Below, in pieces: positions 19,420 to 60,629 of a stretch of 64,000 bases of DNA. A program made the translations under genes and the position numbers. This DNA comes from a virus, in IMG/VR virus record IMGVR_UViG_3300037586_005524, positions 19,221 through 83,220 of that record. One strand, given 5' to 3'. Under the pieces are notes generated by a model. That model saw nothing but the letters and a program-made list of their open reading frames with translations. It ran no database searches and was not told where the DNA came from. How positions within the stretch are numbered: position 1 is the first letter of the stretch; each line of letters starts with the position of its first letter.

Positions 19420-19723
19420 TTCCTTGAATTAAATCAAATAGTTCATCTTTGTCTTCATTTGAAAGGGAGACGTCTTCCTGTTTAGAAAGTTGTTTGTGGA
19501 GCAAAGCAGTAATCTTTACCAATTGTTCATTAGACCTTTGTAAGGTTTCTACATACTTTGCAGCAATTTGTCCCAGATCTTTATGCGTGTCCGCAGTTGA
19601 TTGTGTCTTTTTTATCTCGATGACTAAATCTGAAAGTAAATTCGCAGTGATCGAGCGATCATTTTTAATGTTTTCTATTGCTTCTTGAATATATTCACTT
19701 ACATGTTTCAGTCCCGATTCCAT
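19406..19723 (-). CDS. Helical/coiled-coil hypothetical protein
   Basis: 105 aa, overlaps both neighbours in operon fashion. Confidence 0.65.
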   Translation of the reverse strand: MESGLKHVSEYIQEAIENIKNDRSITANLLSDLVIEIKKTQSTADTHKDLGQIAAKYVETLQRSNEQLVKITALLHKQLSKQEDVSLSNEDKDELFDLIQGNGNG

Positions 19724-20403
19724 TCTTTTTTAAACCCCCGATATCTTACTCTCAATTTATTAAGATTGTTGACTACTTGTTTTGTATTTAATCCTGTAAT
19801 TTCCCTTAGATATAAGTAAATAGCTTTTTTGTTGAAAATTTCAATATCTTCTGAGCTTTCGAATAAAATTTTTACTGCTTCTAAAACTTTTCTCTCGTTG
19901 GCTTTAAGATTTTCACCGCCCCAAGATTCAATGCGCAAATACAATGATTTCCAAAATTCTTTTTCATTTCGAGTTTCATAATAATTATTATAAGAAACTA
20001 AATGCTCTTGTTCTAGGCTTTGTTTTACATCATCTAGTTGCACTTCTCTTTTTGTTTGTTTTGAATTTTTCTTAACTTTATGAATAAACCAATTTTTTGT
20101 AATTACACTAAAATAAGAAAAAGCTTTTGAGCCTTTTTCTGGATCAAATTTATCTAATATAGTTGTAAGCCAAATCTTACATTCTTCTTTTAAATTATCG
20201 ATATTGGGTAAGTTTGTAAATTTATAAGTGTAAACTATCTTGTCTACCATTTCATCGAAAACGGGGCCTATATATTCAATATATAATTTTGTTCTAATTT
20301 TTATGTCATCTGTTTTTGCGTATTCTACAATAGCGTCTTGATGATCCTTGGTAAAATAATGATTTTTACGTTTCGCCATCTTCACCTTCCTCTTCTTCAT
20401 CAT
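19708..20403 (-). CDS. Phage RNA polymerase sigma factor (T4 gp55-like late sigma); true start probably MAKRKNHYF at 20379
   Basis: N-terminal HYF motif and sigma region 2 motif LDKFDPEKGSKAFSYFSVITKNWF. Confidence 0.8.
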   Translation of the reverse strand: MMKKRKVKMAKRKNHYFTKDHQDAIVEYAKTDDIKIRTKLYIEYIGPVFDEMVDKIVYTYKFTNLPNIDNLKEECKIWLTTILDKFDPEKGSKAFSYFSVITKNWFIHKVKKNSKQTKREVQLDDVKQSLEQEHLVSYNNYYETRNEKEFWKSLYLRIESWGGENLKANERKVLEAVKILFESSEDIEIFNKKAIYLYLREITGLNTKQVVNNLNKLRVRYRGFKKEWNRD

Positions 20404-21233: not shown

Positions 21234-22071
21234 TTTGGATATCCATCTCTGCCTTCCATCCTAATTCTTTAAGGGGCAATACGTTGCCTTGTGTATACAA
21301 TACATCGCCTTTTCTTTCTTCTATATAATCAAATGTTACATCTGGAAAATATTTTAGAACAATCTCTTTGATCTCGTTTAAAGAAATGTTACTGCCTGTC
21401 CCAATGTCAAAATGCCGTCCATTGAAATTTTCTTTGTGCTCCATTGCAAAAAGATTAGCCGATACAACATCGCCTAAATATGCCATATCTCTTCTTTGTT
21501 CACCATTCCCTGTGATAAAAGGATTTTTACCTTTTCTTATATGTTCCATCCAATTAGCAATTGCCGTGGCATATGGCCCTTGAGCTTCTTGGTCTTCTGA
21601 ATAAACATTAAAATATCGTAAACTAACTGTGTCTAAACCATATAAATCAGAATATAGTTTGCATTCCATTTCGGAAATTAATTTTTGTAGCCCATATGGA
21701 TTTGTGGGGCCGGATCCATTTCCATTTACAGATGAGGATCCGGAATAGATGACTCGTTTGACGCCAGCTTTTCTAGCAAAATTAAGAATATAGGTTGTTG
21801 CTAATACATTATTTTCCATTGTCTCTACTGGCTTTTCTACACTGTATGCAACTCTTGGAATACAAGCTAGGTGAAAAATATATTCTGGTTTGAAATCAAA
21901 ATAATGTGGGTGGAATCTTTGGCTGCCGTCTGAATATTCTTTAAGATCTTTTACAATATTGCATCCTTCAAAAAGATCGATTCCTTGTACTTCGTGTCCT
22001 AATTCTTGTAATTTTTTATATACGCGAGAGCCAATATATCCTCTATGCCCCGTCACCAAACATCTAGCCAT
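21181..22071 (-). CDS. NAD-dependent nucleotide-sugar epimerase/dehydratase (extended SDR)
   Basis: VTGHRGYIG Rossmann motif, SSS, YGLQK (YxxxK), LRYFNVY. Confidence 0.9.
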   Translation of the reverse strand: MARCLVTGHRGYIGSRVYKKLQELGHEVQGIDLFEGCNIVKDLKEYSDGSQRFHPHYFDFKPEYIFHLACIPRVAYSVEKPVETMENNVLATTYILNFARKAGVKRVIYSGSSSVNGNGSGPTNPYGLQKLISEMECKLYSDLYGLDTVSLRYFNVYSEDQEAQGPYATAIANWMEHIRKGKNPFITGNGEQRRDMAYLGDVVSANLFAMEHKENFNGRHFDIGTGSNISLNEIKEIVLKYFPDVTFDYIEERKGDVLYTQGNVLPLKELGWKAEMDIQNGIHRCYKSLKNELEEK

Positions 22072-22918
22072 TATTTTTTTCCTTTGTTACTGCACCTTCG
22101 ATATCTTTCCAATCATGCTCTTCTCTTACTTCAAGATTTTTTTGCCAAACGGACTTCATAACCTTTGGGTCAATGCCAATTTCTTCAAATAATCCAATAA
22201 ATGCATTTAAGTCTTTTGGAAAACATTTTCCTCCAAAACCAAGGGAGTCATCATGGCCAGGAACATCTAAATGAGAATTTCCAATTCTTCCATCAGAAAC
22301 AAATCCATGCATTGTGTCCTCCCAGCTTACATTAAGTTCATCTGCTGCTTGCTTCATTTCATTCATAAAAGAAACTTTAGTAGCAAAAAAACAATTTGCC
22401 ATATATTTTATAAACTGCGCAGTTGTTACATCTGTTTTAATAATTTTAATATACGGAAATCTACTCTTTATAAGCTTTTCTGCCTCATCAAGCAAATCTG
22501 GGCGGCCACCTAATATAATTCGAGAGGCATTAATAAAATCTAGCCGCGCGCTGCGCTCAGTTAAAAATTCTGGACTGTGTATAATATTAAGATTAGGATA
22601 TTTAAAAATCAAATCTTCCATGATGCCTGGTACAACGGTTGATTTAACTATAAAAATATTATCAGTTCTTTCATTTATTTCAGATATTTGATTGAAAGCA
22701 GAATACATAATATTTGTATCAATTTTTCCACCTAAAGCATCTTTCATCGGAGTTGGAACAGAAACAAAAATGAATTTTGAAGAGTTTATAACCTCACTCA
22801 TTGAGTGTGTAGACTTCTCTGGATTTATATCATATATTTTAATATTTGCATGGAGAGAAAACCCATGTGCGATAGCAGATCCTACAAAACCATTCCCTAT
22901 TATTCCTATATTGTACAT
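22064..22918 (-). CDS. UDP-glucose/GDP-mannose 6-dehydrogenase family (short form lacking the C-terminal domain)
   Basis: GNGFVG, VPTP, KSTVVPG, PEFL, KYMAN...K.SF.NE, GFGGKCFPKD catalytic Cys motif. Confidence 0.9.
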   Translation of the reverse strand: MYNIGIIGNGFVGSAIAHGFSLHANIKIYDINPEKSTHSMSEVINSSKFIFVSVPTPMKDALGGKIDTNIMYSAFNQISEINERTDNIFIVKSTVVPGIMEDLIFKYPNLNIIHSPEFLTERSARLDFINASRIILGGRPDLLDEAEKLIKSRFPYIKIIKTDVTTAQFIKYMANCFFATKVSFMNEMKQAADELNVSWEDTMHGFVSDGRIGNSHLDVPGHDDSLGFGGKCFPKDLNAFIGLFEEIGIDPKVMKSVWQKNLEVREEHDWKDIEGAVTKEKNNG

Positions 22919-22961: not shown

Positions 22962-23720
22962 TTAGTTTATATGTTTAATAATAAATTTCTCAAATAATTT
23001 AACTGATTGATTTAAATTTAAGCTTTCAGTGTCAATAATTAAATCTGGGTCAATTGGCTCATCAAATGAATCAGAAATTCCAGTAAAATTGTATACTTTA
23101 CTTGGGTCTCCATCTGGAAGAAGGGCTCGCCTGTATAGGCCTTTGGTGTCTCTTCTTTTTAACTCTTCTAAGCTACACTTAACATAAACCAATTTTGATT
23201 TTGGAATTACTTTTCTAACATGCTGTCTTGTGGAATTATAAGGATTAATTGCAGACATAACGCAAACAACGTTATTTCGGCCTAACACCTTCCCCACAAA
23301 CGATAGCCTTTTTATATTTGTTTCGCGATCTTTTTTAGAAAATCCTAAATCTTTACAAAGGTTGTTTCTGTATTCGTCGCCGTCGATGATCTCTATTTTA
23401 ATGCCACGTTTTCTTATTTTTTTTTCAATAGATCTAGCTAGTGTTGTTTTGCCGGCGCCGCTCATACCTGTCATCTGAATATACAATCCTTTTGTTTTGC
23501 CCCACTTTACTTTATTCCAGACATGTTCGTGGGTCATAAATAAAACCAACATTAAAGCGTGATATATAATTGCAACAAACCCGGTTTCTTTTAAAGAACC
23601 CGTAATAATATAAGCTACTAATGAAAGCACCAAAAAACCTAGAAGTTTCCAACTAAGTGCTTTGCTGAAACTTCTTCTTGTAGAATCAATCAAAATAGAT
23701 CCTCCATTGTTTTTTCCCAA
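22962..23720 (-). CDS. cysC: Adenylyl-sulfate (APS) kinase with N-terminal DUF2061-like membrane domain
   Basis: TGMSGAGKTT P-loop, DGD, DLGFS..DR..NI.R, RDTKGLY, FTGISD.FD.P; N-terminal RSFSKALSW...HE..W with two hydrophobic helices. Confidence 0.9.
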   Translation of the reverse strand: MGKNNGGSILIDSTRRSFSKALSWKLLGFLVLSLVAYIITGSLKETGFVAIIYHALMLVLFMTHEHVWNKVKWGKTKGLYIQMTGMSGAGKTTLARSIEKKIRKRGIKIEIIDGDEYRNNLCKDLGFSKKDRETNIKRLSFVGKVLGRNNVVCVMSAINPYNSTRQHVRKVIPKSKLVYVKCSLEELKRRDTKGLYRRALLPDGDPSKVYNFTGISDSFDEPIDPDLIIDTESLNLNQSVKLFEKFIIKHIN

Positions 23721-24031
23721 CTCGTAAAGTGATACGCGCGGTCATCGATATATATCCTAGCTGGCACTTTTGTGTTTGTCACCTCGTCGAAGCAATCTTC
23801 TAGATCATATTTTTTAAGCCATTCATGAATAGGCTCTACAGGACGACTTGAAAATATAACCAATCTAAACCCTCTTTTTTTAAGTTCTCTTATGGACTCG
23901 GCCGCACCGTCGTGTGGCGGATCGTATGTATTATATAAACCCTGCCAGCCTTTAGAATATTTATGGATAACTCCATCAAAATCTATAGCAATTGTATTGT
24001 TTTTTATCTTGTACGATATCTCTTTTGGCAT
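23690..24031 (-). CDS. Small capless HAD-superfamily phosphatase
   Basis: AIDFDGVIH motif I, SSR motif II, K and YIDDRA motifs III/IV. Confidence 0.8.
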   Translation of the reverse strand: MPKEISYKIKNNTIAIDFDGVIHKYSKGWQGLYNTYDPPHDGAAESIRELKKRGFRLVIFSSRPVEPIHEWLKKYDLEDCFDEVTNTKVPARIYIDDRAYHFTSWEKTMEDLF

Positions 24032-27465: not shown

Positions 27466-28140
27466 TCAAAATTCGTAATTAAACAAGTTTAAATCTTTTT
27501 CGTATAACTCTTCAATGATCTTTCTTGTATCGTCAGTGTAATATTTTTTATATTTATCCCTTTTCGGAGTTATATTAGTTTTATTTATAGACCTGGGAAG
27601 GGGCAAATTTAGCTGCTCAAATATATTTTGTAAATCAATGTCAAAATTTTGTAGTTTGCCAACATAATCAGGAATAAGTTTATTATTTTTATTATATGCA
27701 TAAAGATATTGAGGACATATATGATTTGGTTGTGTTCGACCCAGCCATTTATAATATTCTTTTGTATTAACAGCTTTTTTAACTTTTTGTACAAAATCGT
27801 CAAACGCTATATTAGACTCAATACCATATGTGTCTTGTGAATAGTGATAAACAGAAACAAGCCTATCAAATGGATTTCTAACAAATGTAAACTTCCAGGC
27901 ATTTGAAAAATCTTTTTCATTAAAAGTTTTCATGTTATAGTGCTGCTCTAATGTATAATGATGTGGCTTACAATGATATCCATATTTTTGGGCTCGCTCT
28001 CTTTGGTCGATATCATAGTCCCTACTTGACATAACTGCATCTAAATTATGCCAATCTTCATTTGGCAAATAACTATGAACTGTCGATCCTGCACATTTAG
28101 GGTTATGTAAAAAAATATATTTTCTCATGGGTTTACACAA
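27466..28140 (-). CDS. Sulfotransferase (Sulfotransfer_2, carbohydrate sulfotransferase-like)
   Basis: FLHNPKCAGST 5'-PSB motif; FVRNPFDRLVSVY 3'-PB motif; C-terminal LYEKDL..F.Y. Confidence 0.9.
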   Translation of the reverse strand: MCKPMRKYIFLHNPKCAGSTVHSYLPNEDWHNLDAVMSSRDYDIDQRERAQKYGYHCKPHHYTLEQHYNMKTFNEKDFSNAWKFTFVRNPFDRLVSVYHYSQDTYGIESNIAFDDFVQKVKKAVNTKEYYKWLGRTQPNHICPQYLYAYNKNNKLIPDYVGKLQNFDIDLQNIFEQLNLPLPRSINKTNITPKRDKYKKYYTDDTRKIIEELYEKDLNLFNYEF

Positions 28141-29096
28141 TTTTGTATTTTTGATTTTTCAAAAAAATCTTTAATTGTTCTCCATCCTTTAACTTTTAGT
28201 TCTCTAAACGACTCATCTGTAAAAAAGGCCGCATGTGGTGTTATACAAAACCTGCTTTTAATCCAAGGCTCCTTTTTTCTCCAAGCGCTAATAAGAGGAT
28301 GTTCTTCGGGAGGAGGTTCTATTTCTAAAACATCCATACCAGCAGCTTTAATTTTATTGTTTTTCAAAGCCCAATAAAGATCGTCTAAGCTTATTATCTC
28401 ACCTCTTGCTGTATTAATTAAGATACAATTTTCTTTCATTTGAGAAAATTGATCTTTGCCTATTAGTTCTTTTGTTTCTTCTGTTAAAGGAGTATGTATG
28501 GAAATGATATCATTATTTGAAAGAAGCTCATCAAAATCTACTTTTTCTACCCCCAATGATTTATCTATTCCAGCAGCAACATAAGGATCATAATATTGTA
28601 TATTTAAACCAAAAGCTTTTGCTCTTAAAGCAACTGCAATGCCAATGCGCCCTAAGCCAATTAAGCCAATATTTTTGCCACGCAACCTAAAAAGACTTTT
28701 TGGCAAAAATGGATCCCAAATATCGCTTTCATTATAAGAATTAATATTCCTCACAAGATTCAATAATAAGGCCATCGTATGATCTGCAACGACATCCGTG
28801 CCATAATCTGGTATATTAGAAACTACAATATTTTCTTTTTTCGCCCGCAATAAATCAATATTGTCATATCCAACGCCCATACGAACTATTATAGAACATT
28901 TTTCCATAGTGTCAAAAGATATGTTGCTTATAGGAATTTCATGCCACACAACAAGTGCGTCTGCATCTTTTATATAGGGCTGGATATCTTCTTCTGTTTC
29001 TGCATTTAAAAATATAACAGTATAAGGATCATCAAGTACTGCTATCTCCTCTTTTGTCCTTTCTGTAATAAAATCAGTAACTACGATTTTTTTCAT
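28125..29096 (-). CDS. D-isomer-specific 2-hydroxyacid dehydrogenase (CtBP/SerA-like)
   Basis: GVGYDNID, GLGRIG, INTARG, DVLEIEP, TPHAA (Arg/Glu/His triad). Confidence 0.92.
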   Translation of the reverse strand: MKKIVVTDFITERTKEEIAVLDDPYTVIFLNAETEEDIQPYIKDADALVVWHEIPISNISFDTMEKCSIIVRMGVGYDNIDLLRAKKENIVVSNIPDYGTDVVADHTMALLLNLVRNINSYNESDIWDPFLPKSLFRLRGKNIGLIGLGRIGIAVALRAKAFGLNIQYYDPYVAAGIDKSLGVEKVDFDELLSNNDIISIHTPLTEETKELIGKDQFSQMKENCILINTARGEIISLDDLYWALKNNKIKAAGMDVLEIEPPPEEHPLISAWRKKEPWIKSRFCITPHAAFFTDESFRELKVKGWRTIKDFFEKSKIQNCVNP

Positions 29097-29869
29097 TCCA
29101 ACTCCAATAAAAAAGATATATCATCGGTGATCTTTCTTGCAGCATTATATAACATATCACAATCTGCTCTATATGCCAAAAGTCTAACGCCATTGTTGAT
29201 TAAAAATTTGGCATACTTAATATCTTTTACAAAAGATCCTATGACAATATTTTTGCTTTCAGCTTGTTTGCAGCACTTTTCTATTAAATTTAATACCTTT
29301 AGATTTTCTATATCTCCTGGGCATCCTAAACTTTGAGAAAGGTCATATGGGCCAAGATAAATTATATCTATATTTTTGACATCTAATATTTCATTAAAGT
29401 TATTAATGCCCTCCTCTCCTTCAATAATAATTGAAGTCAAAATTTTATTGTTTGCTATGTTAGTATGATTTTCTACAGCAGTAAATCCGCCCGCCCTGGT
29501 AAAAGGAGAATATCCTCTATTGCCCTCTGGGAAATATCTACTACACTCTGCAACTTGTTTGGCGCTTTTAAAATCTACAACTTGTGGCACAATGACTCCG
29601 TGAGAGCCTATTTCCAAAGCTCGTAATATTAAATTTTCATTATTGTCGCCAACTCTAAATAATGCTGAAGCGCTGTTTACTTCACAAGCTCTAATCATAT
29701 TTTGTGCTGTTTCATAAGATGCTGGGCCGTGTTCTGCATCGACTACAATAAAGTCCATACCAGCAAATGTAAGAACATCAGCAACCGTTGGAGAAGGAAT
29801 AACCGACCATGTACCAATTACAGTTTTTCCAGAGTTTAGTTTATCTTTCAAAAAATTATTTTTATGCAT
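29093..29869 (-). CDS. HpcH/HpaI-family pyruvate aldolase
   Basis: DFIVVDAEHG, R.P.GNRG, IIE, GPYDLSQSLG. Confidence 0.92.
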   Translation of the reverse strand: MHKNNFLKDKLNSGKTVIGTWSVIPSPTVADVLTFAGMDFIVVDAEHGPASYETAQNMIRACEVNSASALFRVGDNNENLILRALEIGSHGVIVPQVVDFKSAKQVAECSRYFPEGNRGYSPFTRAGGFTAVENHTNIANNKILTSIIIEGEEGINNFNEILDVKNIDIIYLGPYDLSQSLGCPGDIENLKVLNLIEKCCKQAESKNIVIGSFVKDIKYAKFLINNGVRLLAYRADCDMLYNAARKITDDISFLLELE

Positions 29870-29871
29870 TT

Positions 29872-30612
29872 TTATTCCAAATAAGGAGTCGTGCTTTCAG
29901 AAAAGCCGTGTTTTTTAAGCCAATATTCAGCAACAGCTATTTGCCATTCAGCATCAATATCAAAGCCGAAGTCAACTTCTAAGCCATATGTTTTATTTCC
30001 CATCCACTTAAAAGGTAGTTTACCATTTTCAATATCTTCAAAACAAACAGGTCGTAAAACTTGTATTGATAAATCTGCGAAATATACGTCGCCTTGGCTA
30101 TCTCTTATTGATGAAACATCATCAAACACATTTAAATCTACAAAGGAATCAACGATATTGTTTTCTAACTTCCTTGCTCGTGTTGGGCTAAACATATTAT
30201 ATTTAACCACACTAAAACATGAATCTAATGTTTCGTCTTTCTTTAGCACTTCAATTGCTTCGGTTAGTTTATTACAATCCGTCATGGGAGTATTGGCAAA
30301 CAAAAGAACAATTATTTCAGGAACTTCGCCTAGATCTTTTATTATGAAATCATATGCATGTGTTAACACGTCTTCAGTTAATGATTCTGGTGTTGCTAAC
30401 TCCGGTGGTCTATTAATCACTGTAGCATTGTATGATAGTGCAGTCGATTTAATTGAAGGCGAATCTGTGGAAATATATAACTTGTTTATATGCTTACAAT
30501 TATGTGCTGCCATTAAAGAATACTCGTTTAATTGTCTGCCGAGCAATTTCATATAGTTTTTTCCAGGGCAGCCCATGCTTTTTTCTTTTCCAATTTGCAG
30601 TCCGACTATCAT
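29872..30612 (-). CDS. NeuA/KdsB-like acylneuraminate/ulosonate cytidylyltransferase
   Basis: S.G.PGKN N-terminal motif, ISTDS, RPPELA, C-terminal DID. Confidence 0.85.
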   Translation of the reverse strand: MIVGLQIGKEKSMGCPGKNYMKLLGRQLNEYSLMAAHNCKHINKLYISTDSPSIKSTALSYNATVINRPPELATPESLTEDVLTHAYDFIIKDLGEVPEIIVLLFANTPMTDCNKLTEAIEVLKKDETLDSCFSVVKYNMFSPTRARKLENNIVDSFVDLNVFDDVSSIRDSQGDVYFADLSIQVLRPVCFEDIENGKLPFKWMGNKTYGLEVDFGFDIDAEWQIAVAEYWLKKHGFSESTTPYLE

Positions 30613-31001
30613 TTATTTAATAATTCCTCTTTGAAAATAGATTCCCAATTTTTGAATCTTATTGCTTTATCATCAATATAACATACAGCATTTGGTTTTT
30701 CAAACGATACATCTTCAATATATTCGTCCATATTGTTTTCAGCTAACCATTCCCAAATTAATTCTTTTCCAGTTTTACCATTTATAAGAGGGCGTTTTGG
30801 ATTTGCTTTACAACTATAAACAATCAGTGTGTAATCTTGAGAAAGCTTTTTTAACGCTTCGTCCGAACCTTTTATTGGAGGATCATATACAGTACCATCA
30901 TGAAATCCTAAAGAACTTCTATGTATGACTCCATCAAAATCAATTGCTAATATTTTTTCTTCTTGTTCTGTAATGAGCTTTAAAAATTGTTCTTTATCCA
31001 T
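30609..31001 (-). CDS. Small capless HAD-superfamily phosphatase (paralog of 23690-24031)
   Basis: AIDFDGVIH, YDPP, KP, YIDDKA. Confidence 0.8.
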   Translation of the reverse strand: MDKEQFLKLITEQEEKILAIDFDGVIHRSSLGFHDGTVYDPPIKGSDEALKKLSQDYTLIVYSCKANPKRPLINGKTGKELIWEWLAENNMDEYIEDVSFEKPNAVCYIDDKAIRFKNWESIFKEELLNK

Positions 31002-31974
31002 TTAGCGCCATCCTAGCTACATCAAGTGCGCGTCGAGCATATGCCCACTCATTATCATACCAAACTACTAACTTTAATGTATTTTTATTTAATACTTTTA
31101 TCCACTGAGCGTCTAATATTGCTGAGTGTTCAGTCATTTTATAATCAACAGAGACTTTAGATTCTTCGTTAACTGTTAAGAAATCATTTTGTGAAGCTTT
31201 AAAAACTTCTAGCACTTCCTTTAAATTAAATTCGTTTTCACAAAATATAGTTATATCCGAACAAGTCACTACATCGGTTGGAACTCTAAAGGACATTGCA
31301 TCCAACTTTCCTTCTAATTCTGGTAAAATCTCTAGTACAGCTTTTGCGGCTGTTGTATTTTTAGGAATTAAGTTATTTACCGCAGAGCGTCCTAGTGAAT
31401 AGTCTTTCCAAATATTGCCAGGCTTTGAAACAGAGGAGACCGTTCCGTCAACTAAATTTTGGTAAGAAAGCCAGGGATGCAAAGTAGTAAAAAAACAATT
31501 TTTGATTTTCCACCTGTCGTTTACAATTTTTAAAACTTGCGCCACCGCATTGGCGTCACATATGCTAGATGAAACTAAATTATGGTTTTTTTTATCATAT
31601 TCTGACTCATTTGCGCCCATAATAATCGTTTTGTCCACATCATCAGAACAATGAGTTATTACTGCTTTGGCCAGCCTTTTCTCATCGAGCATTGTCTTTA
31701 GTTTTTTTACATTTTCAGATACACCTGTCGCATCTATAACAATATCCACCTCGTCGACCCATTCAATATTTTCTATATTTAATTCGGAAGTATATTTAGT
31801 CTCTTTAATATCCGCTTCAAATCTGCCATAAGTTGAATCGTATTTTAGCAGATAAGCCATGTTTTCTATATTATCTATATCATTAATCCCAACAACATTA
31901 AAAAAGCTGTGCTTTTGATTTATCTTAAATATGGCTCGGCCAATTCTTCCAAAGCCGTTAATTCCTAATTTCAT
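30994..31974 (-). CDS. Class I GAPDH/erythrose-4-phosphate dehydrogenase-like protein with atypical active site
   Basis: GINGFGRIGR, AYLLKYDSTYG, FRVPT, WYDNEWAY; catalytic loop SICDANA instead of ASCTTNC. Confidence 0.85.
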   Translation of the reverse strand: MKLGINGFGRIGRAIFKINQKHSFFNVVGINDIDNIENMAYLLKYDSTYGRFEADIKETKYTSELNIENIEWVDEVDIVIDATGVSENVKKLKTMLDEKRLAKAVITHCSDDVDKTIIMGANESEYDKKNHNLVSSSICDANAVAQVLKIVNDRWKIKNCFFTTLHPWLSYQNLVDGTVSSVSKPGNIWKDYSLGRSAVNNLIPKNTTAAKAVLEILPELEGKLDAMSFRVPTDVVTCSDITIFCENEFNLKEVLEVFKASQNDFLTVNEESKVSVDYKMTEHSAILDAQWIKVLNKNTLKLVVWYDNEWAYARRALDVARMALNG

Positions 31975-32981
31975 TTTTTTCCATCTAGTTCGTAAGCAGT
32001 TTTAATTATATTTTGACATACATTGTCGTTTTTTACAAGATATTTTTTAGTTGCATCGGCAAATTGTTCATCATAGTTTTTTTGTTTTAAATCGCTTATA
32101 GCTTTTCTTATGTCATCAATAGACATGTCTCCGGAAATCTTTTTATAAAAATCATAATCGTAAAAAAATCTAAAAACATCTCTAACAATTGGTCGATGCT
32201 TATTTATAAGATGAACATCCATATCTAAGAAAGGCTTGTTGAAAAATACTGCTTCCTTTATTGCAGAAGAGCTTTCGTGAGTCACAACTAAATCGACAAT
32301 TTTCATAAGCTCCATAGAAGTGTGAGGATGCCAAGATTCATCAAGAAAATAATGATCGCCACGATATTGTTTATTGTGAATAGGATTTTTACCTCTTGTT
32401 TTAACAATTATTTCGTATCCTTCTTCTTTTAAAGCAGTATACAAAAAATCTAGATTTACTTTTGCAGGATAATATCGTGCATCTGGATATATCATTATAG
32501 CTTTTTTAGCCTCTTTTTTTAAACCGTATTTTTTGCAAATAGAGTCTGCATCAAGTTCTATACTATATTTTGGAGACCCAAGATATAAATTTTTATCAGA
32601 AAGAGTTTTCCCATAAACTGCATATTCTTTACTAGGAAATATCGAGTAATCAATATTATCAATATAATCATGAAACATCACGACATAATCTGTACCATAT
32701 GAAAGAGAAAATATCGTTTGTTTCTTCTTATCTGGATATTTAGAACCTACCCCTTCGATACAAAAAATAGGACCGTGATGCTTTGTTATTTCTTTAATGC
32801 CATAAAAGTTAAAATTATAAGCCTCTAATAGCTTATTAAATTCTTTCACATTGTTAGATATGCTGTTATATTTGTTTATATTCCAAGAGAATAAACTAGA
32901 CTTTATTCCCATTTTGTTACCTTCTTCAATCAAAGGTATGAAATATTTTAAAAAGGTCATCTCTGGTATGATAAAGTTCAT
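31971..32981 (-). CDS. Putative GT-B-fold transferase (CDP-glycerol/ulosonate transferase-like)
   Basis: LGSPKY, IIVK.R, DLVVT..SS...EA....KP pattern of GT-B C-terminal domains; adjacent to the cytidylyltransferase module. Confidence 0.45.
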   Translation of the reverse strand: MNFIIPEMTFLKYFIPLIEEGNKMGIKSSLFSWNINKYNSISNNVKEFNKLLEAYNFNFYGIKEITKHHGPIFCIEGVGSKYPDKKKQTIFSLSYGTDYVVMFHDYIDNIDYSIFPSKEYAVYGKTLSDKNLYLGSPKYSIELDADSICKKYGLKKEAKKAIMIYPDARYYPAKVNLDFLYTALKEEGYEIIVKTRGKNPIHNKQYRGDHYFLDESWHPHTSMELMKIVDLVVTHESSSAIKEAVFFNKPFLDMDVHLINKHRPIVRDVFRFFYDYDFYKKISGDMSIDDIRKAISDLKQKNYDEQFADATKKYLVKNDNVCQNIIKTAYELDGKK

Positions 32982-41173: not shown

Positions 41174-42001
41174 TCACTCCTCTCTCATCCCCTCAAATAC
41201 CGTTGTTTTATACTTTGAATTTTCTTCTAATAACATTTCAAAAAATCCTACATCTAGTTTTAAATTTTTTACCATGGCTGCTATAGTTCTTGTATCTTTT
41301 GGCAAACACGGCCCACCAAAACCTCTAAAATCTTCATTGCAGTTCAAATAAACATCATTAATATGATTTCTTTGTGTTATTGTGTTTTTTATTTTAGTAT
41401 AATCGGCGCCGGCGGCCTTGCATACTTCATAAAAGCTATTTGCAAAAGTTACCAAAGTTGCATTATAAATATTATTGAAATATTTAATAAATTCTGCTTC
41501 TAAAGGAGATAGTTGTACAAACTTTTTTGGATAATATCCATGTACATTTTTTAACATTTCATATGTCGAGAAATTATCAGTGCCTATAACACACAAATCA
41601 TGATTATCAATAAAATCTGCAACTGCACATCTTTCTCTAAGAAATTCCGGAATAAAGCATAATTCTAAGTTTGGATACGTTTTTGAAAATTTATTTATAG
41701 TTCCAGGAGCAACTGTAGATTTTATAGCAACAATTCCTTCATAATTATATTCATTTAAATCATCTACTACCATTTCAACAATGTCAGTGTCGCACTCTCC
41801 ATTTTCTTTAGATGGAGTTGGAACACAAACAAAACAGATATCAGTATCAAGCACATCTCTAATAGAAGAATCATATTTTATATCATGCACTCTCATATTA
41901 TGACCTAATTTTTTTAATCCTTCATGGACGGCGGCGCCAACTATGCCGGCGCCAATAATACCAATTTTCATATTATTTTTCTCCAGAAATTTTTGTAACA
42001 A
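41174..42001 (-). CDS. UDP-glucose/GDP-mannose 6-dehydrogenase family, second short-form copy (true start probably MKIGIIG)
   Basis: GAGIVG, CVPTP, KSTVAPG, PEFLRE, GFGGPCLPKD. Confidence 0.9.
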   Translation of the reverse strand: MLQKFLEKNNMKIGIIGAGIVGAAVHEGLKKLGHNMRVHDIKYDSSIRDVLDTDICFVCVPTPSKENGECDTDIVEMVVDDLNEYNYEGIVAIKSTVAPGTINKFSKTYPNLELCFIPEFLRERCAVADFIDNHDLCVIGTDNFSTYEMLKNVHGYYPKKFVQLSPLEAEFIKYFNNIYNATLVTFANSFYEVCKAAGADYTKIKNTITQRNHINDVYLNCNEDFRGFGGPCLPKDTRTIAAMVKNLKLDVGFFEMLLEENSKYKTTVFEGMREE

Positions 42002-58382: not shown

Positions 58383-60629
58383 TTATATTACTCCAGCTCC
58401 ATTATTTAAATAGTTTACAATATTTTCAATAAGCTCTTCATCTTCTTCTAAGCGCACTTTTCTTGCTTCATCCTCGTTCTCTTTCTTAACATCCATGCCA
58501 ACAAAAGCGCTCCCTGCGGAACCGGGCCCTTGTACACTTTGGCCGGCAACCGATGATGCTTCTTCTAGTTCTTCCTCACCTTCTGCAACATGTTTCATGC
58601 GATCTGGATCTGGTTCTTCATTTTTTTCCATATTTTCTTGTGCTTCTTCGTTCCATGTTAAAGCATCTAATGGAGAAAGAGTTTTATATGCTTGGCCTGC
58701 AATTGCATGGAATGAAGAGGGGGTTTGCCATTCATTTATAGCTTGTTCAACTAGCCCGAGAAAAATGCCCAACGGAAGTGGGCGATCCTCCTGTAATTGT
58801 TCTTGTGGTTCTTCTTGTGGCTCTTCTTGTGGCTCTTCAATCGTGCCATTGCCAAGTGTAGTGAATATTTTTTCGGCATCGCTTAAGCTGTTATCTGGAA
58901 TGTAACTTTTAAATGTTTCAAGATCTCCTCTTTCTACACTATCCCGCATATTGCGCGCACTTAGTGGGTTTCCATCATTGTCTATCATATTTGGGGCCGG
59001 AGTTGTTTCTATTTCAAGGCCCCGGGGATTATTTCTAGGGTCTGCCATTATTTTTGGCCATCGATCTTCATCTTTTTCTCCTGCTCCCAAAAGAATAATT
59101 TGATCTTCTGGAGCTTGGTCACGAACATAATCAATAATTGGTGCAATAGGCCCTGCTCCTTCGACATTTTGAAATTCTATTCTATTACTTGGCCAGGGAA
59201 TAGAAGGTTCATTTCTCAAGTATATATCCCAGATTTCCATTGAATCTTGTGCAGTTATTGTTCTACCGTTTATTGTTCTAGGTTCTTGCCCACCGCTACC
59301 AAGAAGTATAATTACCTTTCCATTTGGGCCTACTTGTTGATTATAAAATTTGACCATTTCTAAATGGCCTTTATGTGGCGGCTTGAAACCTCCTGCTAAA
59401 AGCGCAAGTTTTGGTTTTTCTATTTGTACATCTATATCTACTTGTTGCGTTAATTCTTGTTTTGTTGTGTCGCCGTGCGTGCTTGTCAACCCTTCTAGAA
59501 TAAATTCTCCTGTGATCTTGACAGGTTTTTCACCAAATTTAGGATCTCTTAGAATAGTTCCTTCGTGATTAATCACATCATCGAACTTAGGATCCCAACC
59601 AAGCATCCCTGAGACGTCTTCAGAGACCCGTAGAGAGCCTTTAACAGCGTTGCCCAACTCTTTTGTTGCATGATAGAAAACGGCGCCGTTTATGGCCATT
59701 TCTACATCTTCTTGAGATTCTAGCCAATTGATTAATGGTGAGCCATTTAAAGCGGCAATGTATACCTGTTTGCTTAGTGCTCCAATGTCTTTGCCCTCAT
59801 TGGTCATGATTCTTGCATCTCTAGGATTGACAGCATCTCTAAGCCATGCTCTAATTGAAAAATTTTCTACATTGTCTTCTGATAGTTTGATTGAGAAATT
59901 AGTATCTAAAACAGATTCATAATCAATAGGCGCAACATTTTCGGTTGGGGTGTCTCCAAGAATTGAAAAATCATATTTTGCAGCTATAGGTTGAACTTTT
60001 TGGATTAATGCGTTTAGTGCATCTCGATCATAATCAATTTCTATACTTTTATCTTGTATTGGTTTTTCACGCCCTTTCTCATCAACAAAGGTGGGACGCG
60101 GCAATCCTGGTCGGTCCATACCAGTACCTTGTCTTAGTCTGTGAGGTTGCGCCTTTTTCTCATAAAACTGATTAATACCATGTATGGCTAAAATATTTAT
60201 ACCATATTGAATCACGTTGCTGCCGCCTCTTCCTATATATTCAGTATTAAAAAGCTTTGTAGGATCATCCCACATCCCCAAAGCCTTTAGCTCTGGTTCT
60301 ATTTTCGGGAGAGCTTCATTAAATATAGCCAACAATTTTTCAATTGCAACTGGCATGCCGTGGCCTTCTTTCCATTTTGTATAAGCTTGCTCAGCAGTCA
60401 TGCCGATAACAGACATTGGCTCTTGATTTCCGCGATCCGCGCGGAAATCTTTTCTACCATTTTCATCTGTGATTAATTTGAAGCTTGTATTTACGCCGTC
60501 CCACTTGATACTACCGGATTTTGTCTGTAAAAATTCTGCGGCGTCTAAAAAGAAGTTTATTAAATCTTCGCCTGTATTAACCCAATCTATATCGAACGGG
60601 TGATTCATGTGTCCTGCAGCGCCGCCCAT
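58383..60629 (-). CDS. Multidomain protein with HxGH cytidylyltransferase-like nucleotidyltransferase domain
   Basis: LLAGGFKPPHKGHL, GAGEKD, LSARNMR; N-terminal GGAAGHMNHPFD...KWDG.N domain; acidic tail with EEPQ repeats. Confidence 0.8.
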   Translation of the reverse strand: MGGAAGHMNHPFDIDWVNTGEDLINFFLDAAEFLQTKSGSIKWDGVNTSFKLITDENGRKDFRADRGNQEPMSVIGMTAEQAYTKWKEGHGMPVAIEKLLAIFNEALPKIEPELKALGMWDDPTKLFNTEYIGRGGSNVIQYGINILAIHGINQFYEKKAQPHRLRQGTGMDRPGLPRPTFVDEKGREKPIQDKSIEIDYDRDALNALIQKVQPIAAKYDFSILGDTPTENVAPIDYESVLDTNFSIKLSEDNVENFSIRAWLRDAVNPRDARIMTNEGKDIGALSKQVYIAALNGSPLINWLESQEDVEMAINGAVFYHATKELGNAVKGSLRVSEDVSGMLGWDPKFDDVINHEGTILRDPKFGEKPVKITGEFILEGLTSTHGDTTKQELTQQVDIDVQIEKPKLALLAGGFKPPHKGHLEMVKFYNQQVGPNGKVIILLGSGGQEPRTINGRTITAQDSMEIWDIYLRNEPSIPWPSNRIEFQNVEGAGPIAPIIDYVRDQAPEDQIILLGAGEKDEDRWPKIMADPRNNPRGLEIETTPAPNMIDNDGNPLSARNMRDSVERGDLETFKSYIPDNSLSDAEKIFTTLGNGTIEEPQEEPQEEPQEQLQEDRPLPLGIFLGLVEQAINEWQTPSSFHAIAGQAYKTLSPLDALTWNEEAQENMEKNEEPDPDRMKHVAEGEEELEEASSVAGQSVQGPGSAGSAFVGMDVKKENEDEARKVRLEEDEELIENIVNYLNNGAGVI

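What the first reader, a model, noticed from the sequence alone, without database searches (positions are those of the whole stretch)
28125..32981. Six-gene sub-module predicting an unusual CMP-activated 2-keto-3-deoxy sugar acid made by an aldolase route
Seen, in transcription order: GT-B-like transferase, atypical GAPDH/Epd-like dehydrogenase, HAD phosphatase, NeuA/KdsB-like cytidylyltransferase, HpcH/HpaI aldolase, D-2-hydroxyacid dehydrogenase, each overlapping or within 2 nt of the next. No NeuB or KdsA PEP-dependent synthase is in the window. Established: NeuA/KdsB enzymes activate ulosonic acids, and HpcH/HpaI aldolases join pyruvate to aldehydes to give 2-keto-3-deoxy acids. Inference: the two dehydrogenases and the phosphatase make a short oxidised aldehyde, the aldolase extends it to a ulosonic/ulosaric acid (possibly Dha-like), it is CMP-activated, and 31971-32981 transfers it. 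The product cannot be determined from sequence.
Basis: inference. Interest (0 to 1): 0.8.

Follow-up and report, generated by a model that had tools for sequence, protein, structure and literature searches.

The report
Phage aldolase cassette for CMP-acid sugar
A large marine phage carries a bacterial five-gene cassette, built around a pyruvate aldolase, in the genome slot where its sister phages keep the usual sialic-acid-type synthase and CMP-activating enzyme. This suggests the cassette is an undescribed way to make an activated acidic sugar.

Summary
Six overlapping minus-strand genes sit at the stated coordinates with the stated families.

**Context.** The window is part of an 83-kb IMG/VR phage record. 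The genes lie inside a ~28-kb phage glycan cluster.

**Conservation.** Five of the genes form a cassette: rewired GAPDH-like, HAD, a distinct CTP_transf_3 clade, HpcH aldolase, and CtBP-like 2-hydroxyacid dehydrogenase. It keeps the same order in marine bacteria of six or more phyla: 46/51, 49/63 and 47/54 loci. This scan had already flagged the cassette on bacterial DNA. I found no paper on it.

**New here.**
- In 25 of 26 related phage contigs, the homologue of the GT-B gene 31971-32981 sits beside a canonical cytidylyltransferase and a NeuB-family synthase.
- In this phage and one confirmed relative (L017; a 54-kb contig is probably a second), that slot holds the aldolase cassette, and no NeuB or KdsA is present.
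- The GT-B proteins linked to the cassette form one clade.
- The bacterial HAD has been replaced by a phage-type mini-HAD.

**Reading.** This supports an aldolase route to a CMP-activated 2-keto acid sugar. The sugar's identity and the roles of the two dehydrogenases remain unknown. It is also unresolved whether the GT-B protein is the transferase (TagF-like) or a NeuC/PseG-like hydrolase.

The parts
31971..32981 (-). GT-B-fold protein of a mostly phage family, distantly TagF/TagB-like. It is either the transferase for the CMP-activated product or a NeuC/PseG-like nucleotide-sugar hydrolase.
   Evidence: No Pfam hit on the protein itself. Of 34 homologues, 7 hit PF04464 (best E 2e-6) and 3 hit PF02350. 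The AlphaFold model has pLDDT 93.8. VIA-align gives Z 20.6-20.3 to UDP-GlcNAc 2-epimerases including NeuC, Z 19.5 to TagF and Z 18.1 to TarL. The nearest ESM clusters are all viral, followed by PF04464 clusters. Its homologue lies beside CTP_transf_3 and NeuB genes in 25 of 26 viral loci. Cassette-linked members form one clade with SH-aLRT 100.
30994..31974 (-). GAPDH-family dehydrogenase of a distinct subfamily. The catalytic Cys, His and Arg231 are kept, and the inorganic-phosphate site is rewired.
   Evidence: Pfam Gp_dh_N and Gp_dh_C are hit. TIGR01534 scores 247 bits against a cut-off of 367, and Epd models also fall below cut-off. Alignment to PDB GAPDH and to 8 cassette orthologues shows invariant S-I-C-D-A (S148I, T150D, T151A), H-P-W-L (T179L), a 9-11 residue insertion, and IPKxT(T/S)A. 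The gene lies upstream of the cytidylyltransferase in 46 of 51 loci.
30609..31001 (-). Minimal capless HAD-type phosphatase of phage type. It occupies the position of the ~230-aa HAD in the bacterial cassette.
   Evidence: It has the DFDGV motif and is 35% identical (E 6e-19) to 23690-24031, which hits Pfam Hydrolase at E 1e-7. It shows no detectable similarity to the bacterial cassette HAD. It is conserved at 58% identity in the same position in L017.
29872..30612 (-). CTP_transf_3 (NeuA/KdsB/PseF-type) cytidylyltransferase of a cassette-specific clade.
   Evidence: PF02348 at E 3e-12. PseF scores 66 bits and KdsB 30 bits or less, both far below their cut-offs. The clade separates from canonical CTP_transf_3 genes of the same loci with support 100. 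S12, K18, N19, R68 and D218 are shared with canonical members. The QxTSP and NGAIY sugar-site motifs are replaced by F(A/C)N(T/N)P and DLSIQ.
29093..29869 (-). HpcH/HpaI class II (metal-dependent) 2-keto-acid aldolase.
   Evidence: PF03328 at E 2e-28. The HpaI, GarL and RhmA equivalog models score below cut-off. H47, R72, E151 and D177 align with HpaI H45, R70, E149 and D175. The gene lies directly downstream of the cytidylyltransferase in 49 of 63 loci.
28125..29096 (-). D-isomer-specific 2-hydroxyacid dehydrogenase. Its nearest solved relatives are CtBP proteins, followed by phosphoglycerate dehydrogenase and glyoxylate reductase.
   Evidence: PF02826 at E 1e-49. PGDH scores 228 bits against a cut-off of 454. 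The gene lies downstream in 47 of 54 loci and stays linked to the cytidylyltransferase even in variants without the aldolase.
27466..28140 (-). Carbohydrate sulfotransferase, overlapping the end of the module. It may act on the same glycan or sugar.
   Evidence: PF03567 at E 7e-17. A homologue is present in the second cassette-type phage, L017 (44% identity), but in none of the 26 NeuB-type viral loci.

Best explanation
The module is a phage-borne copy of a widespread, uncharacterised bacterial cassette. The cassette most likely makes a CMP-activated 2-keto (ulosonic-type) acidic sugar.

**Proposed steps**
1. The class II aldolase forms the carbon chain by joining a pyruvate-type 2-keto acid to an aldehyde, probably a phosphorylated one.
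2. The HAD phosphatase removes the phosphate.
3. The specialised NeuA/KdsB-type cytidylyltransferase attaches CMP.
4. The product is then used on the glycan that the ~28-kb phage cluster builds, most likely by the adjacent GT-B protein.

**The two dehydrogenases**
The GAPDH-like enzyme (aldehyde to acid, apparently without phosphate) and the 2-hydroxyacid dehydrogenase (2-hydroxy acid to 2-keto acid) resemble the Epd-PdxB and GAPDH-SerA pairs. They probably prepare one of the aldolase substrates from a central metabolite, for example hydroxypyruvate or 3-phosphohydroxypyruvate.

**Shown versus inferred**
- Shown: gene families, catalytic residues, conserved linkage, and replacement of a NeuB plus cytidylyltransferase pair at the same locus in sister phages.
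- Inferred: every chemical step, the order of steps, and the identity of the sugar.
For: - **Families and catalytic residues** are intact.
- **Conserved order.** The five-gene order holds in SAR86, Arcobacter, Pelagibacteraceae, Marinimicrobia, Bacteroidota, Thermodesulfobacteriota and many metagenome contigs: 46/51, 49/63 and 47/54.
- **Independence from NeuB.** The cassette often stands with no NeuB within about 10 kb (12 of 19 long loci).
- **Separate enzyme clade.** The cassette cytidylyltransferase is a clade of its own.
- **Natural swap.** Twenty-six related viral contigs share the syntenic glycan cluster. In 25 of them the GT-B gene is next to, or within a few genes of, CTP_transf_3 (E 3e-26) and NeuB (E 1e-29). 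The window and L017 carry the cassette there instead and have no NeuB or KdsA.
- **Co-varying partner.** The GT-B proteins linked to the cassette form a single clade, support 100.
- **The phosphatase step is kept.** It is retained by non-orthologous replacement.
- **Precedent.** TagB-type GT-B enzymes act as transferases for CMP-nonulosonic acids in Tannerella forsythia (PMC5420450).
Against: - No step has been tested biochemically, and the product is unknown.
- In 13 loci the aldolase is not directly downstream. It lies elsewhere on the contig in L040. It is replaced by an FAA-hydrolase-family gene in L061 and by a RuBisCO-like protein in the Pelagibacter type. In several others it is not on the fetched stretch. 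The cytidylyltransferase-2HADH pair is therefore the tighter unit.
- A dedicated 2-hydroxyacid dehydrogenase has no role in any known CMP-ulosonate pathway.
- The GAPDH-like enzyme lacks the usual phosphate-site residues, so its substrate may not be G3P or E4P.
- In a few bacterial loci (Arcobacter, L011, L049) a NeuB-like gene is present with no second cytidylyltransferase within 10 kb. There the cassette enzyme could serve NeuB's product.
- The viral record is only about 46% complete, so a NeuB gene elsewhere in the genome cannot be excluded.
Confidence: 0.6

Rival explanations
1. The GT-B protein 31971-32981 is not the transferase. It is a NeuC/LegG/PseG-like nucleotide-sugar hydrolase or 2-epimerase that releases a free aldose. 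That sugar is condensed by NeuB in sister phages and by the aldolase here. The product would then be a nonulosonic-type (about C9) acid made by an aldolase route, and another glycosyltransferase of the cluster would transfer it.
For: - The best structural matches are UDP-GlcNAc 2-epimerases, including NeuC: Z 20.6-20.3, with rmsd 3.5 A for NeuC. These are effectively tied with TagF at Z 19.5.
- The conserved phage trio of GT-B, CTP_transf_3 and NeuB looks like neuC/pseG-neuA-neuB.
- Only 1 of 26 relatives has a separate Epimerase_2 gene to feed NeuB.
- Three of 34 homologues hit PF02350 weakly.
Against: - Sequence evidence favours the TagF-like family. Seven of 34 homologues hit PF04464 down to E 2e-6, against 1.8e-3 for PF02350, and ESM feature neighbours are PF04464 clusters.
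- Tandem paralogues in L085 and L087 are more typical of transferases.
- The bacterial five-gene cassette travels without any such protein.
- The recalled Epimerase_2 motifs (HVEAG, PEE) were not seen by eye. This rests on my own knowledge and was not tested rigorously.
Confidence: 0.3
2. The cytidylyltransferase activates a standard nonulosonic acid or Kdo, supplied by the host or by a NeuB gene elsewhere. The other four enzymes make a side-group or modify that sugar. One possibility is a glyceroyl-type acyl group derived from glyceraldehyde-3-phosphate: the rewired GAPDH-like enzyme would pass its thioester to an amine, and the HAD would then remove the phosphate.
For: - Seven of 19 long bacterial cassette loci have NeuB-like genes nearby. 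In Arcobacter, L011 and L049 no second cytidylyltransferase is seen within 10 kb.
- The altered site in the GAPDH-like enzyme is the one where the attacking nucleophile (phosphate) normally binds.
- The genetics of N-glyceroyl groups on nonulosonic acids is unknown (PMC5378307).
- The phage record is incomplete.
Against: - Twelve of 19 long cassette loci, the 83-kb record and L017 all lack NeuB.
- Five loci carry a canonical second cytidylyltransferase beside the cassette one.
- The cassette enzyme's sugar-site motifs differ from canonical enzymes.
- In sister phages the cassette takes the place of NeuB together with the cytidylyltransferase.
- This reading leaves the aldolase and the 2HADH without a role.
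Confidence: 0.15
3. This is a teichoic-acid-like scheme. The aldolase and 2HADH would make an acyclic phospho-hydroxy acid by the same logic as CDP-ribitol synthesis (keto sugar phosphate, then reduction, then cytidylylation). The cytidylyltransferase would make a CDP-linked donor, and the TagF-like GT-B would add the phospho-acid to the glycan, releasing CMP.
For: - The GT-B family is nearest by sequence to CDP-glycerol and CDP-ribitol phosphotransferases.
- The trio of aldolase, 2HADH and cytidylyltransferase is the constant core in other variants reported by this scan.
- The nearest relatives of the 2HADH (CtBP) reduce 2-keto acids (substrate from my own knowledge).
Against: - To my knowledge, all characterised PF02348 enzymes attach CMP to the anomeric hydroxyl of 2-ulosonic acids, not to phosphate esters.
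- A conserved phosphatase inside the cassette would destroy the phosphate that a CDP donor needs.
- In sister phages the same GT-B family is paired with NeuB-type chemistry.
Confidence: 0.1
4. The genes are auxiliary metabolic genes for central carbon metabolism (glycolysis, serine or glyoxylate branch) and are not a glycan pathway.
For: GAPDH-, PGDH- and aldolase-like annotations taken in isolation.
Against: - All score below the equivalog cut-offs.
- The GAPDH phosphate site is rewired.
- The genes are always embedded in glycan clusters and tied to a cytidylyltransferase.
Confidence: 0.03

Closest known systems
Nonulosonic acid pathways (NeuC/LegG/PseG hydrolase, NeuB/LegI/PseI PEP-dependent synthase, NeuA/LegF/PseF CMP-synthetase)
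   Same: Both end in a PF02348 cytidylyltransferase and include a C-C bond-forming enzyme that makes a 4-hydroxy-2-keto acid. A GT-B protein sits next to both. This is the module found at the same genomic slot in 25 of 26 sister phage contigs.
   Different: There is no NeuB-family synthase. A metal-dependent HpcH aldolase is present instead, so pyruvate-type rather than PEP chemistry. Three extra enzymes are present: GAPDH-like, HAD and 2HADH. The cytidylyltransferase is a separate clade with different sugar-site motifs.
Kdo pathway KdsD-KdsA-KdsC-KdsB, and the Bacteroides Kdn pathway (Kdn-9-P synthase, HAD phosphatase, CMP-Kdn synthetase; own knowledge)
   Same: The logic matches: sugar-phosphate aldehyde plus a C3 unit, then a keto-deoxy acid phosphate, then a HAD phosphatase, then a CMP-activated ulosonic acid. 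The phosphatase is capless or small.
   Different: There is no KdsA/DAHP-synthase family gene and no SIS isomerase in the module. KdsB models score 30 bits or less against cut-offs of about 200-250. Two dehydrogenases are present that the Kdo and Kdn pathways do not use.
Pyruvate aldolases acting on ulosonic acids: NanA (Neu5Ac lyase), KDO aldolase, and HpcH-family YfaU/GarL/HpaI and hydroxyketoacid aldolases (PDB 2vws, 1dxe, 4b5s, 6r62)
   Same: The fold and catalytic residues match the HpcH family. Known members reversibly join pyruvate, and some join hydroxypyruvate, to aldehydes (PMC10099721 and PMC7610986, listed; otherwise own knowledge).
   Different: Known members are catabolic or promiscuous. 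To my knowledge none is tied to a cytidylyltransferase or assigned to glycan biosynthesis. All equivalog models score below cut-off.
Epd-PdxB (erythrose-4-P to 4-phosphoerythronate to the 2-keto acid) and GAPDH/SerA (3-phosphoglycerate to 3-phosphohydroxypyruvate), followed by the HAD phosphatase SerB
   Same: The same pairing is present: a GAPDH-family aldehyde dehydrogenase with a D-2-hydroxyacid dehydrogenase, plus a HAD phosphatase.
   Different: The Epd, PdxB and SerA models all score below cut-off. The GAPDH-like enzyme has Ile148, Asp150, Ala151 and Leu179 in place of the phosphate-site Ser, Thr, Thr and Thr. The 2HADH is closest to CtBP. No aminotransferase follows.
TagF/TagB/TarL CDP-polyol phosphotransferases and the TagB-like Pse/Leg transferases of Tannerella forsythia (PMC5420450)
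   Same: GT-B fold with Z 19.5 to TagF and 18.1 to TarL. Some homologues hit PF04464. The partner is an enzyme that makes a cytidine-nucleotide donor.
   Different: The window protein itself does not reach any Pfam threshold. The catalytic His of TagF could not be mapped. The fold is equally close to NeuC-type epimerases.
Bacterial copies of the same cassette noted earlier in this scan (e1-2302181 in SAR86; related variants e1-2027027, e1-2403821, e1-1184949, e1-4789513, e1-801566, e1-3217033, e1-4568179)
   Same: The five genes and their order match the SAR86 note. I re-found the SAR86 loci independently (L005, L006).
   Different: This copy lies in a phage. Its HAD has been replaced by a phage-type mini-HAD, and it is fused into a phage glycan cluster at the position of a NeuB module.

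Membership tests
PF02348 CTP_transf_3 (CMP-ulosonic acid synthetases) | Profile match above the curated cut-off | tested here: met
   47.1 bits against a cut-off of 22.6, E 3e-12.
PF02348 CTP_transf_3 (CMP-ulosonic acid synthetases) | N-terminal GSK...KN nucleotide motif and the C-terminal acidic DxD-type residue | tested here: met
   S12, K18, N19, R68 and D218 align with canonical members of the same loci. Arg of 'ARGGSK' is replaced by Lys.
PseF / KdsB / NeuA equivalogs | Score above the NCBIfam equivalog cut-off, and canonical sugar-site motifs (QxTSP, NGAIY) | tested here: not met
   PseF scores 66.4 against a cut-off of 205.7. KdsB subfamilies score 30 or less against 193-255. The motifs are replaced by F(A/C)N(T/N)P and DLSIQ. 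The protein belongs to a separate clade.
HpcH/HpaI class II aldolase (PF03328) | Profile match, plus the catalytic His and Arg and the metal ligands Glu and Asp | tested here: met
   99.4 bits against a cut-off of 25. H47, R72, E151 and D177 align with HpaI H45, R70, E149 and D175.
HpaI / GarL / RhmA equivalogs | Score above the equivalog cut-off | tested here: not met
   139, 133, 129 and 114 bits against cut-offs of 369-441.
Type I GAPDH / Epd | Catalytic Cys149 and His176, with both Pfam domains | tested here: met
Type I GAPDH / Epd | Phosphate-site residues Ser148, Thr150, Thr179 and Thr208-Gly209, and a score above the equivalog cut-off | tested here: not met
   S148I, T150D, T151A, T179L and G209T are invariant in 9 cassette members. 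TIGR01534 scores 247 against 367, and Epd scores 181 against 539.
D-2-hydroxyacid dehydrogenase (PF02826/PF00389) | Both domains above cut-off | tested here: met
   168.5 and 84.4 bits.
SerA / PdxB / GhrB equivalogs | Score above the equivalog cut-off | tested here: not met
   PGDH scores 228 against 454, PdxB 82 against 434, and GhrB 135 against 492. The closest solved relatives are CtBP proteins.
HAD phosphatase superfamily | Motif I DxDx(T/V), later motifs, and a profile match | tested here: inconclusive
   The 130-aa protein has no Pfam, NCBIfam or PDB sequence hit. It has DFDGV and a C-terminal DD, and it is a clear paralogue of 23690-24031, which hits PF00702 at E 1e-7.
GT-B glycosyltransferase superfamily | Two Rossmann-like domains, with a fold match covering the whole protein | tested here: met
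   pLDDT 93.8. Z 20.6-16 over about 300 residues to many GT-B proteins.
TagF/TagB-like (PF04464) | Profile match, and the catalytic His residues of TagF | tested here: inconclusive
   The window protein has no hit. Seven of 34 homologues hit at E down to 2e-6. Z is 19.5 to TagF. The catalytic residues were not mapped.
Sialyl-/Kdo-transferases (GT30, GT38, GT52, GT80, GT107) | Fold or sequence match closer than to other GT-B families | tested here: inconclusive
   None appears in the top 50 of either fold search. Absence from a list does not exclude the family.
Canonical NulO or Kdo pathway | A PEP-dependent synthase (NeuB PF03102 or KdsA PF00793) | tested here: not met
   No match in the 83-kb record or in six-frame searches of the window and L017. 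The record is about 46% complete.

The most novel reading that the evidence does not exclude
A large marine phage lineage has replaced its sialic-acid-type module with a self-contained pathway. This pathway turns central metabolites (a triose or tetrose phosphate plus a pyruvate-type keto acid) into a so far unknown class of CMP-activated acidic sugar, for example a 3-hydroxy or branched ulosonic or ulosaric acid. The sugar is then sulfated or built into the glycan that the phage makes. The rewired GAPDH-like enzyme and the CtBP-like dehydrogenase would be new biosynthetic activities, and the cassette would be a third way, after the NeuB and KdsA types, to make CMP-sugar acids.
Probability: 0.3. 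Interest if true: 0.85.

Novelty: new variant of a known kind. Interest (0 to 1): 0.72.

Why it matters
To my knowledge, every characterised route to CMP-activated acidic sugars (sialic, legionaminic and pseudaminic acids, Kdn, Kdo) uses a PEP-dependent synthase.

This cassette is common in abundant marine bacteria such as SAR86, SAR11 relatives, Marinimicrobia and Arcobacter. It would be a different, aldolase-based route to a sugar that nobody has identified, on cell surfaces that matter for phage recognition and grazing.

The phage copy adds comparative evidence that the bacterial copies alone do not give. Evolution has exchanged the NeuB module for this cassette at one locus. That points to equivalent function and gives a compact six-gene set for reconstitution.

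It also shows that large phages carry and swap whole acidic-sugar modules inside ~28-kb glycan clusters, here together with sulfation genes.

Tried and rejected
Gene neighbourhoods of the closest protein hits (P0002, P0012, P0078 and others) could not be read directly. I used the search for related loci instead.
- **Single-protein scan of viral contigs** with the cytidylyltransferase found nothing. The profile scan found only two distant loci without the cassette.
- **Link between the phage GT-B and the bacterial cassette.** There is no tblastn hit. hhalign against the recurrent bacterial 350-aa family gave probability 1.9%. That bacterial family is itself a divergent GT-B, nearest GT9 at Z 12.0.
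- **PDB sequence searches** for the 130-aa protein and for the GT-B profile were uninformative.
- **Literature.** Seven full-text searches returned no paper on the aldolase/cytidylyltransferase/GAPDH/2HADH combination. Three papers on nonulosonic acid clusters do not mention such genes.
- **Identifying the sugar from active sites.** I considered pyruvate, hydroxypyruvate and 3-phosphohydroxypyruvate as nucleophile, and 3-phosphohydroxypyruvate as ketone acceptor giving a branched acid. I also considered E4P-derived routes and a Dha-like diacid. Sequence data cannot separate these.
- **Promoter and terminator scan.** It found no more sites than in shuffled sequence, so no operon boundary can be drawn around the six genes.
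- **Direction of the swap.** The GT-B tree is unrooted. That the cassette state is derived rests only on its restriction to one clade.

Full report
**1. Observation**

Neighbouring genes overlap by 4, 8, 4 and 4 nt or are 2 nt apart.

Pfam and NCBIfam confirm four of the families:
- a GAPDH-family protein, with both domains;
- a CTP_transf_3 cytidylyltransferase;
- an HpcH/HpaI aldolase;
- a D-2-hydroxyacid dehydrogenase.

All four score well below the cut-offs of every named equivalog: GAPDH, Epd, PseF, KdsB, HpaI, GarL, RhmA, SerA, PdxB and GhrB.

The 336-aa protein has no Pfam hit but folds with high confidence (pLDDT 93.8) as a GT-B protein.

The 130-aa protein also has no family hit. It carries DFDGV and is a clear paralogue (35% identity, E 6e-19) of another small ORF in the window, 23690-24031, which does hit the HAD profile.

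**2. Context**

The window is bases 19221-83220 of an 83,220-base IMG/VR virus record rated 46% complete. Phage genes flank the sugar genes on both sides:
- a baseplate wedge protein and a 3040-aa ORF on one side;
- a late sigma factor at 19708-20403;
- a PD-(D/E)XK nuclease, PhoH, a PhuZ-like tubulin and a tmRNA on the other side.

Between about 21.2 and 48.9 kb every gene is on the minus strand and belongs to glycan synthesis. The set includes GT1, GT2 and GT4 enzymes, epimerases, an aminotransferase, a carbamoyltransferase, methyltransferases, a radical-SAM enzyme, an APS kinase and a sulfotransferase.

GC content of the module (0.30-0.335) matches the phage backbone. The record contains no initiating phosphoglycosyltransferase of the Bac_transf type and no Wzx-type flippase.

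**3. The five biosynthetic genes are a conserved bacterial cassette**

The cytidylyltransferase has hundreds of relatives, mostly from marine samples. Profile-guided scans gave 13 genome loci and 61 metagenome loci. The genome loci come from SAR86, Arcobacter/Aliarcobacter, Pelagibacteraceae, Marinimicrobia, a Marinoscillum MAG, Thermodesulfobacteriota, a Simkania-labelled SAG and others.

Among loci with enough flanking DNA:
- a GAPDH-like gene lies just upstream in 46 of 51;
- the aldolase lies directly downstream in 49 of 63;
- the 2-hydroxyacid dehydrogenase follows in 47 of 54.

Most loci have a ~230-aa HAD-like gene between the GAPDH-like gene and the cytidylyltransferase. Identities to the phage proteins are 41-47%, 49-55%, 37-44% and 35-45%.

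The cassette cytidylyltransferases form a clade clearly separate from the canonical CTP_transf_3 genes that sometimes lie in the same loci.

Of 19 long cassette loci, 12 have no NeuB-like gene within about 10 kb.

Earlier notes of this scan had flagged the same cassette in SAR86 and related variants elsewhere. I re-derived the SAR86 case independently.

**4. The phage lineage and the swap (new here)**

The GT-B protein has no relative in the bacterial loci. It belongs to a mostly viral family.

A scan of viral contigs with its profile gave 26 loci on contigs of up to 476 kb. These are the same kind of phage. Many of the window's glycan genes have 50-83% identical homologues there. The cluster ends in the same small ORFs and late sigma factor, and begins near the same nuclease and PhoH.

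In 25 of the 26 loci, the GT-B gene lies close to two other genes:
- a short CTP_transf_3 gene (E 3e-26), immediately adjacent in 18 loci and within six genes in the rest;
- a short NeuB-family synthase (E 1e-29).

The window has the five-gene cassette directly after the GT-B gene instead. So does a second contig, L017, which carries all six genes in the same order at 46-74% identity. A 54-kb JGI contig that appears to carry both P0002 and P0123 probably does too.

The window and L017 contain no NeuB-like ORF in any frame. The GAPDH-like, aldolase and 2HADH genes have no homologue in any of the 26 NeuB-type loci.

In L017 the cassette is the only thing between the GT-B gene and the conserved end of the cluster.

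The GT-B proteins linked to the cassette form one clade with support 100. All other rows but one come from NeuB-type loci or from proteins whose context I could not read; the exception is a 6-kb contig, L101, that has neither gene.

This is a natural exchange of [cytidylyltransferase + PEP-dependent synthase] for [GAPDH-like, HAD, cytidylyltransferase, aldolase, 2HADH]. It is the best available evidence that the cassette delivers the same kind of product, a CMP-activated 2-keto acid sugar.

The bacterial HAD was replaced in the phage by a copy of the phage's own mini-HAD at the same position. This argues that a phosphatase step is required.

**5. The enzymes**

*Aldolase.* The His, Arg, Glu and Asp of HpaI are all in place.

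*Cytidylyltransferase.* It keeps the nucleotide-binding Ser, Lys and Asn, Arg68 and the C-terminal Asp. The motifs that line the sugar site in canonical enzymes are replaced.

*GAPDH-like enzyme.* It keeps Cys149, His176 and Arg231. In all nine cassette members aligned it has:
- Ile148, Asp150 and Ala151 around the cysteine;
- Pro-Trp-Leu after the histidine;
- a 9-11 residue insertion;
- a changed 207-209 loop.

These are the residues that hold inorganic phosphate and part of the substrate phosphate in GAPDH (own knowledge). The enzyme is therefore probably non-phosphorylating, and its aldehyde substrate is open.

*2HADH.* It is closest to CtBP proteins, then to phosphoglycerate dehydrogenases and glyoxylate reductases.

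**6. The GT-B protein**

By sequence it leans towards the TagF/TagB family. Seven of 34 homologues hit PF04464 down to E 2e-6, against three weak PF02350 hits. ESM feature neighbours agree.

By fold it is tied between UDP-GlcNAc 2-epimerases including NeuC (Z 20.6-20.3) and TagF (Z 19.5) or TarL (Z 18.1).

TagB-like GT-B enzymes are the genetically supported transferases for CMP-pseudaminic and CMP-legionaminic acid derivatives in Tannerella forsythia (PMC5420450). A transferase role therefore has precedent.

However, the trio of GT-B, cytidylyltransferase and NeuB also looks like neuC/pseG-neuA-neuB, and only one of the 26 relatives has a separate Epimerase_2 gene.

I put the transferase reading at about 55% and the nucleotide-sugar hydrolase reading at about 30-35%. 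Either way the protein is functionally tied to the CMP-sugar module.

**7. Mechanism**

Shown:
- the gene families and catalytic residues;
- the conserved linkage;
- the swap with a NeuB module;
- retention of a phosphatase.

Inferred: the aldolase joins a 2-keto acid to an aldehyde, the HAD dephosphorylates an intermediate, and the cytidylyltransferase makes the CMP-sugar.

The pairing of a GAPDH-family aldehyde dehydrogenase with a 2-hydroxyacid dehydrogenase mirrors Epd-PdxB and GAPDH-SerA (own knowledge). This suggests a sequence from aldehyde to acid to 2-keto acid. That sequence would supply hydroxypyruvate, 3-phosphohydroxypyruvate or a tetrose-derived keto acid as an aldolase substrate. 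Such a scheme uses only central metabolites, which fits a cassette that moves between phyla and into phages. It remains a guess.

Some points cut against a simple picture:
- The cytidylyltransferase-2HADH pair persists where the aldolase is absent.
- A RuBisCO-like protein stands next to the cytidylyltransferase in Pelagibacter-type loci.
- An FAA-hydrolase-family gene occupies the aldolase slot in L061.

**8. Comparison and novelty**

The module works like the Kdo, Kdn and nonulosonic acid pathways. It fails their defining test, a PEP-dependent synthase, and it adds two dehydrogenases.

I found no publication on it in seven full-text searches and three targeted reads. That library lacks most subscription journals.

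I class it as a new variant of a known kind. The cassette itself was seen before in this scan on bacterial DNA. The phage copy, the swap with NeuB and the HAD replacement are new.

**9. Limits**

- No biochemical data exist.
- The viral record is incomplete.
- The trees are quick, unrooted analyses.
- Metagenome loci are not taxonomically assigned.

Noticed in passing
window 28888-28915 (minus strand): A perfect sigma-70 consensus (TTGACA, 16 nt spacer, TATAAT; 12 of 12) lies inside the 2-hydroxyacid dehydrogenase gene on the coding strand. It is the only 12/12 site in 19 kb. It could be an internal promoter for the sulfotransferase and downstream genes.
   Followed up: no
window 21181-48895; loci L078-L103: The ~28-kb glycan cluster is syntenic across at least 26 IMG/VR contigs of up to 476 kb. 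It has conserved ends: nuclease and PhoH on one side, small ORFs and a late sigma factor on the other. The middle is variable. In relatives the middle holds NeuB, a PIG-L deacetylase, a formyltransferase, an AsnB-like amidotransferase and FkbM methyltransferases.
   Followed up: partly
window 27466-28140 and L017:2872-3531: The carbohydrate sulfotransferase occurs in both cassette-type phages and in none of the 26 NeuB-type loci. Sulfation may therefore be coupled to the cassette sugar.
   Followed up: partly
window 22064-22918 and 41174-42001: Two UDP-glucose/GDP-mannose dehydrogenase-like genes are short (284 and 275 aa). They lack the C-terminal UDP-binding domain and part of the N-terminal domain. 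Homologues occur in 15 related viral loci each, up to 76-79% identical, and the best match to 22064-22918 has the same length. This looks like a conserved short form, not a pseudogene.
   Followed up: no
L012:10755-11948 (Candidatus Pelagibacter sp. Uisw_094), also L069: In the Pelagibacter-type variant, which lacks the aldolase and the GAPDH-like gene, a RuBisCO-like protein (PF00016, E 5e-43) lies next to the cassette cytidylyltransferase. The 2HADH, HAD genes, HldE-like, GmhA-like and GT9 genes are nearby.
   Followed up: no
L061:10743-11348: A fumarylacetoacetate-hydrolase-family gene (PF01557, E 2e-38) sits exactly in the aldolase slot, between the cytidylyltransferase and the 2HADH. Both families handle pyruvate-enolate and 2-keto-4-substituted acids (own knowledge).
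   Followed up: no
L044:5339-6394, L007:7278-8369, L005:17375-18403 and 8 more: A Pfam-less protein family of about 350 aa recurs near bacterial cassettes, directly after the cytidylyltransferase in L044. It models as a divergent GT-B, nearest the GT9 heptosyltransferases (pLDDT 86, Z 12.0). It is a candidate for the bacterial transferase.
   Followed up: partly
window 23690-24031: A second mini-HAD (113 aa) overlaps the start of the APS kinase gene 22962-23720. It is a paralogue of the cassette mini-HAD, and homologues are rare in related phages.
   Followed up: no
window 58383-60629: A 748-aa ORF outside the glycan cluster has a weak PHROG 'cytidyltransferase' match at residues 547-613, E 3.5e-6.
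   Followed up: no
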